From: an uncultured Actinomycetes bacterium
GTDB taxonomy: Bacteria; Actinomycetota; Actinomycetes; Mycobacteriales; Jatrophihabitantaceae
Direction of reading: 5' to 3'
DNA: 64,000 nt
Assembly: GCA_963708805.1 (NCBI GenBank)
Contig: CAVPUA010000003.1
Coordinates: 750,455 to 814,454, forward strand
Below are positions 73 through 49,960 of the stretch, piece after piece (the first letter of the stretch is position 1; each line of letters starts with the position of its first letter). Below the pieces are notes generated by a model. That model was not told where the DNA came from. It saw only the letters and a list, made by a program, of their open reading frames with translations, and did no database searches. Position numbers and translations under genes: made by a program.

Positions 73-603
73 TCACGCGCCCACGTCGTGGGCGTGATGC
101 TCCACGTCGTGCAGGAAGTACTTGCCCAGCGTCTCGACGGTGAACCTCGAACCGTTCGAGCGCCGGCCCGGCCGAGTCCACGCCTGGTCGGGCACGCTGC
201 TGAACACGGCCGCGACCGTGGCGGCGGCGCGGTCGAGCTCGTCGGCGACCAGCGTCGGGTCCTGCGTCCAGTACCGCTCCTCGAGGGCGGTCGCGTCCTG
301 ATCCCAGTTCGCGAACTGCGGGTCGTCCTCGGTGAGCATCAGCGACGCCCTGGTTGCGAAGATCCGGCAGACGTCACGGACGTGCGCGCCGTACTCGAGC
401 GCCGACCAGGTGACGTCATCCGGACGATTCGCCGAACCGTCGGCCCGGACAGCGCCGGCCAGCCGCCCGGCCGCGTCGAGGGCGCGGGCGGGGATTTCGG
501 CCCGATCGATCGCGGCCGCGTCGTAGCCGCATTCGGCACAGGGCGCGTCGAGAACCCACGTCCAGTCCTTCTCGTCCGGTATCGGTGTTGTCGGGTCAGT
601 CAT
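73..603 (-). CDS. DinB/MDMPI-superfamily protein (mycothiol maleylpyruvate isomerase N-terminal-like, TIGR03083-like)
   Basis: Intact 176-aa ORF. Motif W..LEYGAHVRDV resembles the MDMPI_N/DinB_2 fold. Typical high-GC codon bias. Confidence 0.5.
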   Translation of the reverse strand: MTDPTTPIPDEKDWTWVLDAPCAECGYDAAAIDRAEIPARALDAAGRLAGAVRADGSANRPDDVTWSALEYGAHVRDVCRIFATRASLMLTEDDPQFANWDQDATALEERYWTQDPTLVADELDRAAATVAAVFSSVPDQAWTRPGRRSNGSRFTVETLGKYFLHDVEHHAHDVGA

Positions 604-681
604 CGGGCGCTCCTGCGGTCGTCGGAACGCAACAAGATCACGGGCGTCAACCCGATTCGGACGGCCGCGCCGGGAGCGCCG

Positions 682-981
682 TCAGTCGAGGTCGAACGCG
701 GCGTGAATGGCCCGCGACAGCGCAGTCTCCTGCTCGGGCAACAGCCGGCCGAGCTGCCGGCCCAGGTCAGTGACGGAAATGGTCACGATGTTGTCGAGGT
801 TGACAACCCAGGCATGATCCAGCCCGTTCGCGGCACCGAGCGGAACCTCGACGGAAAGTCCGCGCACGGTACTCGTGATGGGTGCGACGGTGACGAGGTT
901 GCGCCGCGGTCGCACCTGATCTCGCGTCAGCACCACAACGGGGCGCGTCTTGTCGAGTCTGGCGAGGTGAATAGGGCGCAT
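682..981 (-). CDS. mazF: type II toxin-antitoxin system toxin, PemK/MazF family
   Basis: 99-aa ORF with the MazF-like core (RPVVVLT...VTVAPITS...GL). Its start overlaps the stop of the upstream small RHH-type ORF (ATGA at 981). Confidence 0.8.
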   Translation of the reverse strand: MRPIHLARLDKTRPVVVLTRDQVRPRRNLVTVAPITSTVRGLSVEVPLGAANGLDHAWVVNLDNIVTISVTDLGRQLGRLLPEQETALSRAIHAAFDLD

Positions 982-1220
982 CAGTCGAGTTCGGCCAGGG
1001 GCACCCTGGCCGCGAGCCCGGCCAGACCGGCGAACTCGTCGTCCGCTGTGCTGATGGACGCGTAGATCGCGGCATCGCGTTCAGCGGCAAGCCGTCGCTG
1101 CTCACGCGTGATGGCGTGCCAGATGAAGTCGGCCCGGCTACGGGCGGCCCCGCTCGATACCTGCGCGTCCACGAACCTCACGAGCTCGTCGGGAAGGCGA
1201 ATGGCGATCTGAGTGCTCAT
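981..1220 (-). CDS. mazE: type II antitoxin, ribbon-helix-helix (MazE/CopG-like)
   Basis: 79-aa ORF immediately upstream of mazF and translationally coupled to it. N-terminal IAIRLPDELVRFVD matches the RHH DNA-binding signature. Confidence 0.7.
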   Translation of the reverse strand: MSTQIAIRLPDELVRFVDAQVSSGAARSRADFIWHAITREQRRLAAERDAAIYASISTADDEFAGLAGLAARVPLAELD

Positions 1221-1271
1221 ACCAAAACGGTACCAGGGTGGGATTCAAGCTGTGCTCAGCGGCGCGACGGC

Positions 1272-2090
1272 TCAGTGCGAGACCTGATCTGCGGGCGGGG
1301 CAGCGATGGACACCGGCTGGTCGTAGTTGCTGACAGTGATCTTGGTCGACGCGTCCTGACCGCCCACGGTCAGGTCTTCGGTGAGCTGGACGAGCCGGTT
1401 CTGGCTGTCCAGCCAGGCTTCGAGGGGTAGCGTCGCGATCCCCGCCGCGCCCAGTGTGGTCGAGGCCGGGTTTCCGGGCGGCAGCTTCGCGACGTCGACC
1501 ACGATCGAATAGTGCGTCGTGGCCTGGCCGTCGATCGTGGCCGGCCCGTCGTCGGTGACGGTGGTGGCGGCCTGGGCGAGGGCGCTGTAGGAGCTGAGCG
1601 AGGACTGCGACAACAGCGATCCGGTCGTCGTGCCGAGCGTGCGGGCGAGAGGATTGCTGCTGGTGGCGTCGGCGAGCAGCCAGGGCTTTCCGGATGACTC
1701 GATGCCCGGCAGCTTGGCGTAGACCTGGGTGCCGATGACCCTCAGTTCGACCGAGCCGAAGCCGGGCAGCGCCTCGGTCACGTCCATCGCCGTCAGCTTG
1801 CCGCCGGAGATCGACTCGTCGCCGCTGGCGGTGATCTGCTGGCCGGCCACGCTGACCGACAGATCGAGATGCAGCGAGCTGGTCTGAGCCAGGCTCTGGG
1901 ACAGTAGGGCGGCGAGGGTAGGCCCGTTCGTCGCACTGCTGCCGGAGACGGGGGCCCCGGTGGCGCCGCCGCCGGCGCCCGCCGCGCCGGCTGGTGCGCC
2001 GTGGCCAGGAGTCACGTTCGCGCAGGCGGTCAGCAACAACGCCGCGCCGACGAAGCCGGCCGCAGCGGCCGGATATCGGACGCGATTCAT
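1272..2090 (-). CDS. putative secreted lipoprotein (LppX/LprAFG-like)
   Basis: N-terminal signal peptide with lipobox LLLTAC. Followed by a Gly/Ala-rich linker and a roughly 200-aa domain. Confidence 0.6.
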   Translation of the reverse strand: MNRVRYPAAAAGFVGAALLLTACANVTPGHGAPAGAAGAGGGATGAPVSGSSATNGPTLAALLSQSLAQTSSLHLDLSVSVAGQQITASGDESISGGKLTAMDVTEALPGFGSVELRVIGTQVYAKLPGIESSGKPWLLADATSSNPLARTLGTTTGSLLSQSSLSSYSALAQAATTVTDDGPATIDGQATTHYSIVVDVAKLPPGNPASTTLGAAGIATLPLEAWLDSQNRLVQLTEDLTVGGQDASTKITVSNYDQPVSIAAPPADQVSH

Positions 2091-46506: not shown

Positions 46507-47106
46507 GTGGTCACCCCGACCGAACCGGCGCGCCGGCGCGACCCCGAGCGCCGCCAGCGAATACTGACCGCCGCGGCCGATCTGGTCGCCGAGCGGGGCT
46601 ACCACGACGTCGGCATGATCGAGATCGGCGCCGCGGCGGGCATCACCGGCTCGGCGATCTACCGGCACTTCGGCGGCAAGTCGGCCGTCCTCGTCGCGAT
46701 GTTCGACCGGGTCATCGACAATCTCGGGCGCGAGGCCGAGGAGATCGTGGCGGCCGAGACCGAACCCCGCGAGACACTGCGCCGGCTCGTACAGACGCAG
46801 GTGCAGTTCGTCCTGGACGAACGGACGCTGGCGCAGGTCTATCACCACGAGATCGCCAACCTGCCCGAGGAAGACCGCCACCGGTTGCGACGCAAGCAGC
46901 GGCTCTACATCGAGGAGTGGGTGCACGTCCTCGCCGTGCTGCGCCCGGACGTCAACGACGGGCAGCTTGCGCGCGCTCGTGCACGCATCGATCGGCGCGA
47001 TCCAGTCGCAGTTGTTCTACGAGAGCGGCTTGCCCCGAGGGCAACTCGAGCGGCTCATGTCGTCGGTGGCCGAAGAGGCACTGTTCGTACCGGCGGACGA
47101 AGCGTG
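46507..47106 (+). pseudogene. TetR-family transcriptional regulator, frame-disrupted
   Basis: The HTH is in frame 46270..48093 (GTG start at 46507). The C-terminus (...ALFVPADEA*) is in another frame ending at 47106. Confidence 0.65.
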
Positions 47107-48093
47107 ACCGCGCGCCTGGACTTCTACACCGGCAACGGGCTGCGTCTGGCCGACGCCGTGACGGTCGCGTCGATCACCGAGGCGGCCGGGCTCGGCGGGT
47201 TGTGGACGCTCGAGGCCCACACCGAGCCGTTCCTGCCGCTCGCTCTGGCCGCCGAGCACACCTCGCGCATCCGGCTCGGCACGTCCGTGGCCGTCGCGCT
47301 GGCCCGCAACCCGATGGTCGTCGCCCATCTGGCCCACGAACTCAATCGATTCGCCGCGGGCCGCTTCGAACTCGGGCTGGGGCCGCAGGTGGGCGCGCAC
47401 ATCGTGCGTCGATACGGCGAGAAGTTCGATCACCCGGCCGAACGGATGGCCGAGTTCGTCGAGGCGCTGCGAGCGATCTGGAGCACCTGGAACGACGGAT
47501 CGCCACTGCGGTTCGAGGGGCGGTTCTACCGGCACACGCTGATGACACCCGCCTTCGATCCCGGGCCGTCGGGCTTCGGCTCGCCGCGGGTGCACCTCGC
47601 CGCCGTCGGCCCGCGCATGGTCGACGTCGCGTGCCGGCTGGCCGACGGCCTCATCGCCCATCCGTTGTCGTCGCCGCGGGTGATCACCGAGCGGCTGCGT
47701 CCGGCCGTCGCCGATGCCGCCCGGCCGGACTTCCAGCTCTCGTGTCCGGTGCTCGTGATCACTGGACGCACCGACGACGAGATCGCCTCGGCCCGGCGGC
47801 AGGTGCGCAAGCAGCTGGCCTTCTACGCCTCGACGCCGTCGTATCGCTCAGTGCTCGAGCTCCACGGGGCGGGCGATGTCGCCGATCGCCTGCGCGAGTT
47901 GTCGAGGACCGGCCAATGGGACGCGATGACCGAGTTGATCAGCGACGAGTTGCTGGCCGAGTTCAGCGTCGAAGCGCCGATCGCGTCACTGGTCGCCCGT
48001 CTGCACGAGCGCTTCGACGACCTGCTCGACGTCGTCCTGATCTATGCGCCGTACGAAGTCGATCATGAGCTCTGGCTCGATCTGAACGTCTAG
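47104..48093 (+). CDS. LLM-class (luciferase-like) F420-dependent oxidoreductase
   Basis: GTG start overlapping the TetR stop. 329 aa, intact. Its TAG stop lies inside the IS481 target duplication. Confidence 0.7.
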   Translation: MTARLDFYTGNGLRLADAVTVASITEAAGLGGLWTLEAHTEPFLPLALAAEHTSRIRLGTSVAVALARNPMVVAHLAHELNRFAAGRFELGLGPQVGAHIVRRYGEKFDHPAERMAEFVEALRAIWSTWNDGSPLRFEGRFYRHTLMTPAFDPGPSGFGSPRVHLAAVGPRMVDVACRLADGLIAHPLSSPRVITERLRPAVADAARPDFQLSCPVLVITGRTDDEIASARRQVRKQLAFYASTPSYRSVLELHGAGDVADRLRELSRTGQWDAMTELISDELLAEFSVEAPIASLVARLHERFDDLLDVVLIYAPYEVDHELWLDLNV

Positions 48094-48094
48094 C

Positions 48095-49188
48095 TGTTGT
48101 GACCTGACACGTTGTGTCAGGTTGCGAGCCGGCTGGTGGGTGGGTGTCCGCCGAGGGCGGAGTGGCCGCGTCGAGTGTTGTAGTAGTGCAGGAAGCGGTC
48201 AAGGCCTTGGCGGCGGAGGTTGTTGCTGGTCCAGGGTCGGGCGTAGGCCCATTCGGTGAGCAGGGTGCGGTTGAATCGTTCGGCTTTGCCGTTGGTCCAG
48301 GGGCAGCCGGGTTTGGTGAAGCGGCGTTTGATTTGCCAGGCCGAGCAGACCCAACCCCAGTCGGTGCCGTGGCGATAGACCAGGGCGTTGTCGGTCAGAA
48401 CACGGCGCACGCGGATGCCGTGGCTGGCGAACCAGGCCAGGGCGCGGTGCAGGAACCCGGCGCTGGTCGGGTCTTTCTCGTCGGCCAGCACTTCGGAGTA
48501 GGCCAGGCGGGTGTGGTCGTCGATGGCGGTGTGGACGTAGTCGTAGCCGATCTTCGTTTTCTTGTGCCGGTTCGTGACCGACACTGCGGCGTCACGGCCG
48601 TGCAGGCGCCACCCGCCGCCGGTGGGGATCTTGCCCAGCTTCTTGACGTCGACGTGGATCATCGCGCCGGGACTGGGATGCTCGTAGCGGTTTTCGCTGC
48701 GCCGGGAGGCCCGGACCCGCTCGCCGGTGATCGGGTCGATCGCCGCCAGATGCGGTACCTGGTGGCGGGCCAGGATCCGGCCGACCGTCGAGGCGTTCAG
48801 GCCGAGCTCGGCCGCGAGCACGACCGCTCCTCGCTTGCGTCGCCGCCGCGCGCTCAGAACACGCTGCTCGATCCGTTTTGGGGTACGAGCCGGCATCCGC
48901 CGCGGCCGCGAAGAACGATCGCGCAGCCCACCATCACCGCCCTCAGCGAAGCGACGAACCCACTTGTTCACGGTGGCGCGTGAGACGCCCAGTTGCTCGG
49001 CGACATGAGCTGGCGGCCAACCCGCCGCCACACGATCGACCATCAACCTGCGCGAGAACGGCGTCGTACGAGCGTTAGCGTGAGCCATAGAGGACCTCCT
49101 GCGGGTGAATGCCTAGACACATCCACTCCGTCAGGAGGTCCTCCCACGATCAAGCAGGCTCGCCGTAACAACCTCTCGGGTCACGACA
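48095..49188 (-). mobile_element. IS481-family insertion sequence, 1094 bp, with 6-bp target-site duplication TCTAGC
   Basis: Imperfect terminal inverted repeats (TGTGACC...GTTGT at both ends). An identical TCTAGC flanks both ends at 48089-48094 and 49189-49194. The internal GC content is lower than the surroundings. Confidence 0.8.
48117..49088 (-). CDS. IS481-family DDE transposase
   Basis: Intact 323 aa with an N-terminal HTH and an rve integrase core (the typical IS481 DDE triad region). Confidence 0.85.
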   Translation of the reverse strand: MAHANARTTPFSRRLMVDRVAAGWPPAHVAEQLGVSRATVNKWVRRFAEGGDGGLRDRSSRPRRMPARTPKRIEQRVLSARRRRKRGAVVLAAELGLNASTVGRILARHQVPHLAAIDPITGERVRASRRSENRYEHPSPGAMIHVDVKKLGKIPTGGGWRLHGRDAAVSVTNRHKKTKIGYDYVHTAIDDHTRLAYSEVLADEKDPTSAGFLHRALAWFASHGIRVRRVLTDNALVYRHGTDWGWVCSAWQIKRRFTKPGCPWTNGKAERFNRTLLTEWAYARPWTSNNLRRQGLDRFLHYYNTRRGHSALGGHPPTSRLAT

Positions 49189-49189
49189 T

Positions 49190-49960
49190 CTAGCCCCGCC
49201 ACTTCGGGCCGCGTCCGAGCCGGATCGGTCCGGTCGCGGCGGCGAGTTCGATCGGCTGGCCGCGCTGGGTGATGCGCAGGACGCCCGCGACCCGCAGCGC
49301 TTCGGCGACCGAGCGCGACTGCTCCATCGCCTCGCGCCCCGACACTCCGAAGACGACGCGGGCGGCGTCACTCGGGCAGATCGTCGCCTCGGCCGGTCGG
49401 TGGCGCAGCAGAGCGCGCATGGCTGCCGCCAGGCGAGTTCGCCGCCCGTCGGCCGTCGACGGTTCCCACCACGGTTCGCCCCGTTCTCCGAGAGCGGTTG
49501 CCGCGTCGTCCACGCGCGTCGTCGCGCTGAGGTCCCCGTGGTCGATCGCGCGCCGCGCGCTGGCCAGCTCCGCGAGCAACTCCCCGCGCAGTTGCTTGGG
49601 GATGCCGGGATCGCCACCGGCGTCGGGGGGTTCGAGTGGGCCGACGTCCACGCACGGCTCCGCGGTGGCCCGGCTCGCATCGATCACCGGTCGGCGCAGT
49701 CGGCGACGCTCGTCGTCGTCGAGTCCGCCCCAGACGCCTTCGTAGCCGTTGGCGAGCGCGCTCTCCCGGCAGCGATCGATCACCGGGCAGCGCGCGCAGA
49801 TCGCCTTGGCGGCCGCGACCTGAGCCAGCGCCAGCCGACCCGACCCGACGGGGAAGAACAGCTCGGGGTCCTCGTCGAGACAAGCGGCCCGCCCACGCCA
49901 GTTGCCGCGCAGTTCGTCGACATCGCGAGAGCGGGCCCGAGTGCCCAGTGGTCGGGTCAT
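49190..49960 (-). CDS. WhiB-like (Wbl) Fe-S transcription factor fused to a C-terminal DUF3253-like domain
   Basis: Internal ATG MTRPLG. Wbl cysteine pattern (C...CxxC...C: CLDEDPELFFP, CARCPVIDRC) and GVWGG turn. The C-terminal roughly 90 aa are DUF3253-like (ICPSDAARVV...GPIRLGRGP). The TAG stop lies inside the IS481 target duplication. Confidence 0.55.
   Translation of the reverse strand: MTRPLGTRARSRDVDELRGNWRGRAACLDEDPELFFPVGSGRLALAQVAAAKAICARCPVIDRCRESALANGYEGVWGGLDDDERRRLRRPVIDASRATAEPCVDVGPLEPPDAGGDPGIPKQLRGELLAELASARRAIDHGDLSATTRVDDAATALGERGEPWWEPSTADGRRTRLAAAMRALLRHRPAEATICPSDAARVVFGVSGREAMEQSRSVAEALRVAGVLRITQRGQPIELAAATGPIRLGRGPKWRG

What the first reader, a model, noticed from the sequence alone, without database searches (positions are those of the whole stretch)
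48089..49194. IS481-family element inserted into a CTAG that served as the shared stop codon of two convergent genes
The 1094-bp IS has an intact transposase and a perfect 6-bp duplication TCTAGC, fitting IS481's NCTAGN preference. The TAG in the left copy terminates the + strand LLM oxidoreductase. The CTA (TAG on the - strand) in the right copy terminates the Wbl-DUF3253 gene. Before insertion the two genes would have converged on one palindromic CTAG. The intact ORF and perfect duplication argue for a recent event. The insertion separates the 3' ends and could alter termination or antisense read-through.
Basis: seen in the sequence. Interest (0 to 1): 0.55.

Follow-up and report, generated by a model that had tools for sequence, protein, structure and literature searches.

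The report
IS481-family insertion at a shared stop
A 1,094-bp jumping gene of the well-known IS481 family has landed exactly on the four bases (CTAG) where two head-to-head genes both ended, and its 6-bp target duplication gives each gene its stop codon back, so this is a neat but ordinary and already-described kind of event.

Summary

**What is there**
- Window 48095-49188 is a complete 1,094-bp IS481-family insertion sequence. It has an intact 323-aa DDE transposase on the - strand and imperfect terminal repeats beginning TGT.
- It is flanked by a perfect 6-bp duplication, TCTAGC.

**Evidence for an insertion**
- A metagenome contig about 98% identical to both flanks carries the empty site with a single TCTAGC.
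- In that contig the F420-dependent LLM oxidoreductase gene and the WhiB-DUF3253 gene overlap by CTAG.
- More distant relatives also show 4-bp convergent stop overlaps (TTAG, CTAA), so the overlap is ancestral and the IS is a later arrival.
- Ten of ten copies of a related IS in one long-read genome have perfect NCTAGN duplications.

**Consequences**
- Both host proteins are unchanged.
- Any effect on transcription (read-through, antisense RNA) is inferred, not shown.
- A conserved leader hairpin hides the transposase ribosome-binding site.

**Novelty**
- CTAG targeting by IS481 elements, and duplicated TAGs serving as host stop codons, are already published for ISRe46/TnRErm46.
- The element is a new IS481 family member (best protein match 87%).
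- Interest is low.

The parts
48089..48094 (.). Left copy of the 6-bp target-site duplication TCTAGC. Its TAG (48091-48093) is the stop codon of the + strand LLM oxidoreductase gene.
   Evidence: The empty-site relative L087 has a single TCTAGC.
48095..49188 (-). Complete IS481-family insertion sequence, 1,094 bp, with the transposase on the - strand.
   Evidence: Similarity to IS copies on Mycobacterium/Mycolicibacterium plasmids (81.5% and 78.6%) and to about 45 metagenome copies begins and ends exactly at these coordinates.
48095..48115 (.). Terminal inverted repeat at the transposase-distal end (TGTTGTGACCTGACACGTTGT). It includes a 7-bp hairpin, CCTGACA/TGTCAGG, just beyond the transposase stop codon.
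   Evidence: 17/21 match to the other end. Termini are conserved in relatives.
48117..49088 (-). Transposase gene, 323 aa, intact. It has N-terminal HTH/leucine-zipper domains and an rve DDE core. D147, D233 and E270 are the inferred catalytic triad.
49090..49143 (-). Leader hairpin. The perfect 12-bp arms GAGGACCTCCTG / CAGGAGGTCCTC enclose 30 nt. The 3' arm contains the AGGAGG ribosome-binding site, which ends just before the ATG.
   Evidence: I18; the 119-nt leader folds at -66.3 kcal/mol, z = -6.1; the 10-bp core stem is nearly invariant in 32 diverged copies, and 2 inner pairs show compensatory changes.
49168..49188 (.). Terminal inverted repeat at the transposase-proximal end (reverse complement TGTCGTGACCCGAGAGGTTGT).
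49189..49194 (.). Right copy of the duplication TCTAGC. Its CTA (49190-49192) is the stop codon (TAG) of the - strand WhiB-DUF3253 gene.
47104..48093 (+). Left flanking gene: F420-dependent LLM-class oxidoreductase (TIGR03617 family), 329 aa from the GTG at 47104. Its protein is unchanged by the insertion.
   Evidence: The L087 orthologue is 329 aa with the same C-terminus.
49190..49960 (-). Right flanking gene: WhiB-domain + DUF3253 fusion protein, 256 aa. It is on the same strand as the transposase and directly upstream of it. Its protein is unchanged.

Best explanation
A copy of an IS481-family insertion sequence transposed into the hexamer TCTAGC.

**Before the insertion.** The central CTAG was at once the TAG stop of the LLM oxidoreductase gene (+ strand) and the TAG stop of the WhiB-DUF3253 gene (- strand). 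The two genes overlapped tail to tail by 4 bp.

**The insertion.** The DDE transposase made staggered cuts 6 bp apart. Repair duplicated TCTAGC, so each gene kept a full CTAG and its own stop codon. Neither protein changed, and the two 3' ends are now 1.1 kb apart.

**Why this site.** Landing on a stop codon needs no special mechanism. In this 70% G+C genome CTAG is about 7-fold depleted. About a quarter of the remaining CTAGs are stop codons, the same fraction as among insertion flanks of related copies.

**Shown**
- The anatomy of the element.
- Family membership.
- The empty site in a relative.
- The ancestral 4-bp overlap.
- The 6-bp NCTAGN rule for this clade.

**Inferred**
- The element is still active.
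- Read-through from the WhiB-DUF3253 gene enters the transposase gene in the sense direction. It is kept untranslated by the conserved leader hairpin that buries the ribosome-binding site.
- IS-borne inward or outward promoters, if present as in Bordetella IS481, would make RNA antisense to both neighbours.
For: **Anatomy and family**
- Anatomy and duplication.
- Family HMM above the curated cutoff, full length. Pfam rve, rve_3 and LZ_Tnp_IS481.
- Conserved D147/D233/E270 and one unique substitution (L253I) against 123 homologues.

**Boundaries**
- They are defined independently by where similarity to other copies stops.

**Empty site**
- L087 aligns 1-1296 to window 46798-48094 (97.9%) and 1288-1677 to 49186-49575 (98.5%).
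- Its junction ...gatctgaacgtcTAGccccgccacttcggg... is identical to the window with the IS and one TCTAGC removed.

**Ancestral overlap**
- L084 (syntenic LLM, TTAG), L086 (CTAA) and L085 (CTAG, with a different neighbour).

**Target rule**
- 10/10 perfect NCTAGN duplications in L168-L177.
- CTAG at 39/47 left and 45/46 right flanks of metagenome copies.

**Composition argument**
- CTAG occurs 25 times against about 177 expected.
- 6 of 22 background CTAGs are stops, against 21 of 73 IS flanks.

**Hairpin**
-.

**Literature**
- NCTAGN repeats, and their TAG serving as the stop of uninterrupted target genes, are described for ISRe46/TnRErm46 (PMC6794481).
- ISLxc2 also has NCTAGN repeats (PMC2516522).
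- CTAG is one of four tetramers allowing 4-bp convergent overlaps (PMC2174442).
- Bordetella IS481 has promoters Pin and Pout that feed antisense RNA into neighbours (PMC6161684).
Against: - Only one copy is visible, and the rest of the roughly 3.03-Mb genome could not be searched. Activity and copy number are therefore unknown.
- This exact transposase is absent from the 15-billion-protein collection, although neighbouring proteins from the same 3,032,181-bp contig are present. I could not confirm the IS in the public gene calls. A different start-codon choice is the likely but unproven reason.
- No sigma-70-like promoter and no junction terminator were detected, so all transcriptional consequences are conjecture.
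- The core stem of the hairpin is invariant, so it offers no covariation support.
- This copy lacks a G inside an otherwise conserved GTTGTTGACGGCG motif near the transposase-proximal end, which could affect expression.
Confidence: 0.93

Rival explanations
1. The IS is ancestral at this site, and the empty site in L087 arose by precise excision, that is, recombination between the two 6-bp repeats.
For: Precise excision between short direct repeats is possible in principle. Only one close empty-site relative was found.
Against: - Three more distant relatives (WhiB-DUF3253 61-66% identical) have the same direct 4-bp convergent overlap with no IS, so the empty state is ancestral by parsimony.
- The duplication is perfect and the transposase undecayed.
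Confidence: 0.03
2. Assembly artefact: a repeated IS was placed between the two genes by the assembler and is not really there.
For: - Short-read metagenome contigs of related IS copies are clearly chimeric across the element. Only 8 of 44 have matching 6-bp flanks, against 10 of 10 in a long-read genome.
- The exact transposase is not on record in the protein collection.
Against: - A misplacement would not create a perfect, correctly phased TCTAGC on both sides with both ORFs closed.
- An independent read set (Logan contig L001 from ERR11523676) encodes an identical WhiB-DUF3253 protein. It ends on the last base shared by the filled and empty alleles, so a real junction or branch exists there.
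Confidence: 0.03
3. The true duplication is only the 4-bp CTAG. The element would then be 1,096 bp, and its outermost bases merely happen to match the flanks.
For: In short-read metagenome contigs the outer N positions of the hexamers match at roughly chance level (8 perfect and 18 five-of-six out of 44). In M. shottsii the first position differs at three sites.
Against: - 10 of 10 copies in one long-read genome have perfect 6-bp NCTAGN duplications with six different hexamers.
- The base between CTAG and TGT varies freely among copies with identical transposases, so it derives from the target.
- The window copy plus the empty site fits 6 bp exactly.
- Published IS481-family elements duplicate NCTAGN (PMC6794481, PMC2516522).
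Confidence: 0.02
4. The insertion is retained because it is useful. It could uncouple two colliding convergent transcription units. Or IS-derived antisense RNA could regulate the WhiB-DUF3253 regulator or the LLM gene.
For: - Before insertion the genes had no intergenic terminator, only a 4-bp overlap.
- Bordetella IS481 Pout and Pin transcripts commonly run antisense into neighbours (PMC6161684).
- Double-stop CTAG sites are occupied in four other loci (L093, L094, L106, L132).
Against: - The frequency of stop-codon landings equals the share of CTAGs that are stops, so no selection is needed.
- No promoter or terminator signals were found.
- The empty allele exists in a 98%-identical lineage.
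Confidence: 0.1

Closest known systems
ISRe46 / TnRErm46 of Rhodococcus equi (IS481 family; PMC6794481)
   Same: - It is an actinobacterial IS481-family element that targets CTAG.
- Its direct repeats are NCTAGN and its inverted repeats begin TGT.
- The TAG of the repeat supplies the stop codon of target genes, which are therefore not interrupted (parB).
   Different: - ISRe46 is part of a 6.9-kb cargo transposon, and its own transposase stop lies in the flanking repeat.
- Here the element is a bare 1,094-bp IS whose transposase stops at an internal TGA, 22 nt from the end.
- Here both copies of the repeat serve as stops, for two convergent genes.
IS481 / IS1002 of Bordetella pertussis (family prototype)
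   Same: - It has a single-ORF DDE transposase and is about 1 kb long.
- It makes a 6-bp duplication at NCTAGN.
- It is known to alter neighbouring transcription through Pin and Pout (PMC3053399, PMC6161684).
   Different: - It comes from a distant host (a betaproteobacterium) and has a distant sequence.
- No promoter evidence exists for the present element.
- The leader hairpin seen here was compared only within its own actinobacterial clade.
IS481-family copies on Mycobacterium sp. SMC-4 plasmid pSMC-4_3 and Mycolicibacterium chubuense NBB4 plasmid pMYCCH.01
   Same: Full-length collinear similarity (81.5% and 78.6% DNA identity over 1-1094), the same termini, and CTAG at the flanks.
   Different: They are below the identity usually used to call the same IS. 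The closest protein anywhere is 87% identical, so this is a distinct member.
4-bp convergent gene overlaps (CTAG, CTAA, TTAG, TTAA; PMC2174442)
   Same: The pre-insertion arrangement is exactly this class. Relatives use TTAG and CTAA at the same junction.
   Different: Only the CTAG version creates an IS481 target. The window lineage and L087 have CTAG.
IS10/IS50-type protection from outside read-through (ribosome-binding site sequestered in a hairpin formed only in long transcripts; from my own knowledge of those elements)
   Same: A stable hairpin pairs the Shine-Dalgarno sequence with an upstream complementary arm located inside the element.
   Different: The native transcription start was not mapped. 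It is therefore unknown whether element-initiated transcripts lack the 5' arm. This is a functional analogy only.

Membership tests
IS481 family insertion sequence | Transposase matches the family model above its curated threshold over its full length | tested here: met
   NF033577 scores 301.3 bits against cutoff 224, residues 13-321 on profile 2-284/284. The next-best family, IS3, scores 85 bits, below its cutoff of 160.
IS481 family insertion sequence | Single uninterrupted transposase ORF with no programmed frameshift (unlike IS3) | tested here: met
   One 323-aa ORF, 48117-49088 (-), with HTH/LZ_Tnp_IS481 and rve/rve_3 domains in one frame.
IS481 family insertion sequence | Conserved DDE catalytic residues | tested here: met
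   HVD147, TD233N and AE270R were located. D147 and E270 are at least 98% conserved among 123 homologues. D233 was located by motif but fell below that 98% threshold in the alignment. Assigning these three as the triad is by analogy with rve-fold enzymes.
IS481 family insertion sequence | Terminal inverted repeats beginning TGT; length about 950-1300 bp (ISfinder description, from memory) | tested here: met
   TGTTGTGACC... and TGTCGTGACC... (17/21 match). The element is 1,094 bp.
IS481 family insertion sequence | 6-bp target duplication at the consensus NCTAGN | tested here: met
   TCTAGC on both sides here, single in the empty site L087. 10/10 perfect NCTAGN duplications in L168-L177. CTAG at 84 of 93 flanks of metagenome copies.
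IS481 family insertion sequence | Demonstrated transposition (copy-paste) activity | not testable with these tools
   Only indirect: intact ORF, perfect duplication, insertion polymorphism against L087.
4-bp convergent stop-codon overlap | Two opposite-strand genes whose stop codons share a CTAG/CTAA/TTAG/TTAA tetramer | tested here: met
   Met for the pre-insertion state. In L087 the genes are 306-1295 (+) and 1292-1678 (-), sharing CTAG. L084 shares TTAG and L086 CTAA.
Read-through protection by ribosome-binding-site sequestration (IS10/IS50-like) | Hairpin that pairs the Shine-Dalgarno sequence and is conserved across copies | tested here: met
   Fold energy -66.3 kcal/mol, z = -6.1. The core stem is nearly invariant in 32 copies (77-88% identical overall), and 2 inner pairs are compensatory.
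Read-through protection by ribosome-binding-site sequestration (IS10/IS50-like) | The element's own transcript starts inside the hairpin, leaving the site free | not testable with these tools
   The promoter scan found nothing. This needs 5'-end mapping.

The most novel reading that the evidence does not exclude
This actinobacterial IS481 clade may be built for harmless residence, through three features acting together:
- CTAG targeting, which in high-G+C genomes means mostly stop codons and gene ends.
- A 6-bp duplication that regenerates the stop on both sides, so that even 'double-stop' convergent junctions are recurrent safe landing pads. Four further cases were seen: L093, L094, L106 and L132.
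- A conserved leader hairpin that silences translation of read-through transcripts from the upstream host gene.

In addition, the Logan contig from ERR11523676 ends on the last base shared by the filled and empty alleles. This suggests the insertion is still polymorphic within the sampled population.
Probability: 0.3. Interest if true: 0.4.

Novelty: new member of a known kind. Interest (0 to 1): 0.2.

Why it matters
**Annotation.** The locus is a clean example of how an insertion sequence can sit between two genes without damaging either. Annotators should not call the flanking genes disrupted.

**Strain typing.** The site is a useful presence/absence marker for this poorly sampled actinobacterial lineage.

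**IS biology.** The conserved leader hairpin, and the recurrence of double-stop CTAG sites as targets, are modest and testable additions to what is known of the IS481 family.

No new kind of system is involved.

Tried and rejected
- **Exact-sequence look-ups of the transposase** (two start choices) and of the LLM protein (two starts) found nothing. Only the fused 528-aa TetR-LLM ORF was on record. That record led to the cluster mate P0242 and so to the empty site.
- **Scan of species-representative genomes with WhiB-DUF3253.** It returned only single-domain matches and no close relative, so it gave no empty site.
- **Target duplications in short-read metagenome contigs.** Only 8 of 44 were perfect, which at first suggested a 4-bp duplication. 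I rejected this after the long-read genome gave 10 of 10 perfect. The mismatches are best explained by contigs that join the flanks of different copies.
- **Enrichment test.** I asked whether stop-codon landings exceed what CTAG availability predicts. They do not: 29% against 27%.
- **Promoter/terminator scan.** No promoter was found, and only one internal terminator-like site unrelated to the junctions.
- **Rfam search.** Nothing reached a gathering score.
- **Covariation in the core leader stem.** None is possible, because the stem is invariant.
Full report
**Observation.** The hexamer TCTAGC lies at 48089-48094 and again at 49189-49194, and the 1,094 bp between them (48095-49188) form the element. 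The + strand ORF ends with TAG at 48091-48093, inside the left hexamer. The - strand ORF ends with CTA at 49190-49192, inside the right hexamer. The two ends are imperfect inverted repeats that begin TGT and match at 17 of 21 positions. CTAG is rare in this 70% G+C window: 25 occurrences against about 177 expected, and three of those belong to the element or its duplication. Two identical NCTAGN hexamers at exactly the element boundaries are therefore not a chance pattern.

**Identity of the parts.**
- *Transposase.* The internal 323-aa ORF (48117-49088, - strand) matches the NCBIfam IS481-family transposase model over its whole length. It scores 301 bits against a cutoff of 224, while IS3, IS630 and IS21 all fall below their cutoffs. 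Pfam finds the IS481 leucine-zipper/HTH N-terminus and rve/rve_3 integrase core domains.
- *Integrity.* In an alignment with 123 homologues, the motifs HVD147, TD233N and AE270R are present. The window protein has one private substitution, L253I, so the gene looks intact.
- *Left neighbour.* It is a TIGR03617-family F420-dependent LLM oxidoreductase.
- *Right neighbour.* It is a WhiB domain fused to DUF3253.
- *Copy number.* There is one copy in the window.

**Boundaries.** Two plasmid-borne IS481-family elements align to positions 1-1094 and not beyond. They come from Mycobacterium sp. SMC-4 (81.5%) and Mycolicibacterium chubuense NBB4 (78.6%). About 45 metagenome copies do the same. The closest transposase among 5.8 billion clustered proteins is 87% identical, so this is a distinct member of the family.

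**The empty site.**
- *How it was found.* The exact LLM protein was not on record. A 528-aa ORF that fuses the upstream TetR gene to the LLM gene was on record, from a 3,032,181-bp contig. Its cluster mate P0242 is encoded on a 1,678-bp JGI metagenome contig, L087.
- *What it shows.* L087 aligns to window 46798-48094 at 97.9% and to 49186-49575 at 98.5%. Its junction...gatctgaacgtcTAGccccgccacttcggg..., is identical to the window with the IS and one TCTAGC removed.
- *Gene arrangement.* In L087 the LLM gene (306-1295, +) and the WhiB-DUF3253 gene (from 1292, -) overlap by exactly CTAG.
- *Ancestral state.* More distant relatives carrying the rare WhiB-DUF3253 fusion show the same 4-bp tail-to-tail overlap. 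L084 has TTAG with a syntenic LLM gene, L086 has CTAA, and L085 has CTAG with an unrelated phosphatase gene. Four-base convergent overlaps using these tetramers are a recognised class (PMC2174442).
- *Conclusion.* The overlap is ancestral and the IS arrived later, after the split from a lineage whose flanks differ by about 2%.

**Target rule for this clade.**
- *Short-read copies.* CTAG flanks 39 of 47 left ends and 45 of 46 right ends of the metagenome copies. Only 8 of 44 have identical hexamers on both sides. That briefly suggested a 4-bp duplication.
- *Long-read copies.* Ten copies encoding one identical transposase (83% DNA identity to the window element) occur in a long-read assembly (L168-L177). 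All ten have perfect 6-bp duplications, with six different NCTAGN hexamers.
- *Reading.* I attribute the short-read mismatches to contigs that join flanks of different copies.
- *Agreement with the literature.* The 6-bp NCTAGN rule matches published IS481-family elements (PMC6794481, PMC2516522).

**Is landing on a stop codon special?**
- *Test.* I used codon-position G+C periodicity and absence of in-frame stops over the last 60 codons.
- *IS flanks.* 21 of 73 assessable flanks of related copies use the duplicated TAG as the stop of an inward-facing coding ORF. Four loci (L093, L094, L106, L132) do so on both sides, as here.
- *Background.* In the window, 6 of 22 CTAGs not associated with the IS are stop codons by the same test.
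- *Result.* The proportions are alike (29% against 27%), so CTAG specificity plus CTAG scarcity inside high-G+C coding sequence is enough to explain the pattern.
- *Prior report.* The consequence, a TAG in the repeat serving as the stop of an uninterrupted target gene, was reported for ISRe46/TnRErm46 in Rhodococcus equi (PMC6794481).

**Likely consequences (inferred).**
- *Proteins.* Both are unchanged.
- *Sense read-through.* The WhiB-DUF3253 gene lies on the same strand as the transposase and directly upstream of it. No terminator-like site is detected, so read-through would enter the transposase gene in sense.
- *Leader hairpin.* The 119-nt leader folds at -66.3 kcal/mol (z = -6.1). A perfect 12-bp stem (49090-49101 with 49132-49143) pairs the AGGAGG ribosome-binding site. 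The 10-bp core of this stem is nearly invariant in 32 copies that are otherwise 77-88% identical, and two inner pairs show compensatory changes. This resembles the way IS10 and IS50 avoid activation by outside transcription (my knowledge of those systems). The native transcription start is unmapped, however.
- *Antisense RNA.* Read-through from the LLM gene would be antisense to the transposase. By analogy with Bordetella IS481, inward and outward IS promoters could send antisense RNA into both neighbours (PMC6161684). The promoter scan found nothing here.

**Caveats.**
- The exact transposase sequence is absent from the protein collection, although its neighbours from the same contig are present. 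A different start call is the probable reason, but I could not check it.
- Copy number in the genome is unknown.
- An independent Logan contig (L001, run ERR11523676) encodes the identical WhiB-DUF3253 protein and stops at ...GGGGCTAGA. That is the last base shared by the filled and empty alleles.
  - A break caused only by a repeated IS should extend about 25-30 nt into the element.
  - A break at this position therefore fits a graph branch between the two alleles, that is, insertion polymorphism in that sample.
  - This is an inference from one contig end.

**Verdict.** The element is a new member of a well-known family, doing something already described for that family. The double-stop junction is a neat variation. 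Interest is low.

Noticed in passing
window 46507-47107, indel at about 46969: The TetR-family regulator (SACE_7040 family) upstream of the LLM gene carries one extra G in CTTGCGCGCGC relative to L087. This shifts the frame and fuses its first ~154 residues, plus 45 out-of-frame residues, in frame to the LLM ORF. The resulting 528-aa product is on record for the source contig. In L087 the TetR gene is intact and ends in a GTGA overlap with the LLM start. This could be a real pseudogene or derepression event, or an assembly error.
   Followed up: partly
window 49190-49960 (-); L084, L085, L086: The WhiB + DUF3253 fusion protein is very rare. Only four full-length members, including this one, appear among 5.8 billion clustered proteins, and the others are 61-66% identical. 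In L084 and L086 it is the last gene of a three-gene set (78 aa; 151 or 129 aa; fusion) whose genes overlap, by 4 bp in L084 and by more at the last junction in L086. Its function is unknown.
   Followed up: partly
L001 (Logan contig, ERR11523676), last bases; window 49189-49194: The contig ends on the last base common to the filled and empty alleles, with no IS sequence. That is what a de Bruijn graph branch between two alleles would give, which suggests the insertion is polymorphic in that sample.
   Followed up: no
window 49166-49167: This IS copy lacks the G of the motif GTTGTTGACGGCG, which 30 of 32 aligned copies conserve. The motif contains a TTGACG that could be a -35 box for the transposase promoter, so the copy might be under-expressed.
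   Followed up: no
window, whole 64 kb: CTAG is about 7-fold under-represented (25 observed, about 177 expected). Roughly a quarter of the remaining sites are stop codons. Sites 22355 and 22366 close two convergent genes 11 bp apart.
   Followed up: partly
L178-L181 (Mycobacterium shottsii AP022572.1 and CP014860.2): At three distinct sites of a related IS in complete genomes, the flanking hexamers share CTAGN but differ at the first base (for example GCTAGC against CCTAGC). This contrasts with the 10/10 perfect duplications in L168-L177 and is unexplained.
   Followed up: no
L088-L167 (short-read metagenome contigs): Many contigs are about 1,094-1,100 bp, meaning the IS alone. Those with flanks mostly have mismatched duplications. 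This warns that short-read assemblies join flanks from different IS copies.
   Followed up: yes
L171 (ERZ26273096, 5.35-Mb contig): One of the ten related IS copies interrupts a LAM55 pectate-lyase-like gene, with fragments on both sides. CTAG targeting therefore does not always spare genes.
   Followed up: no
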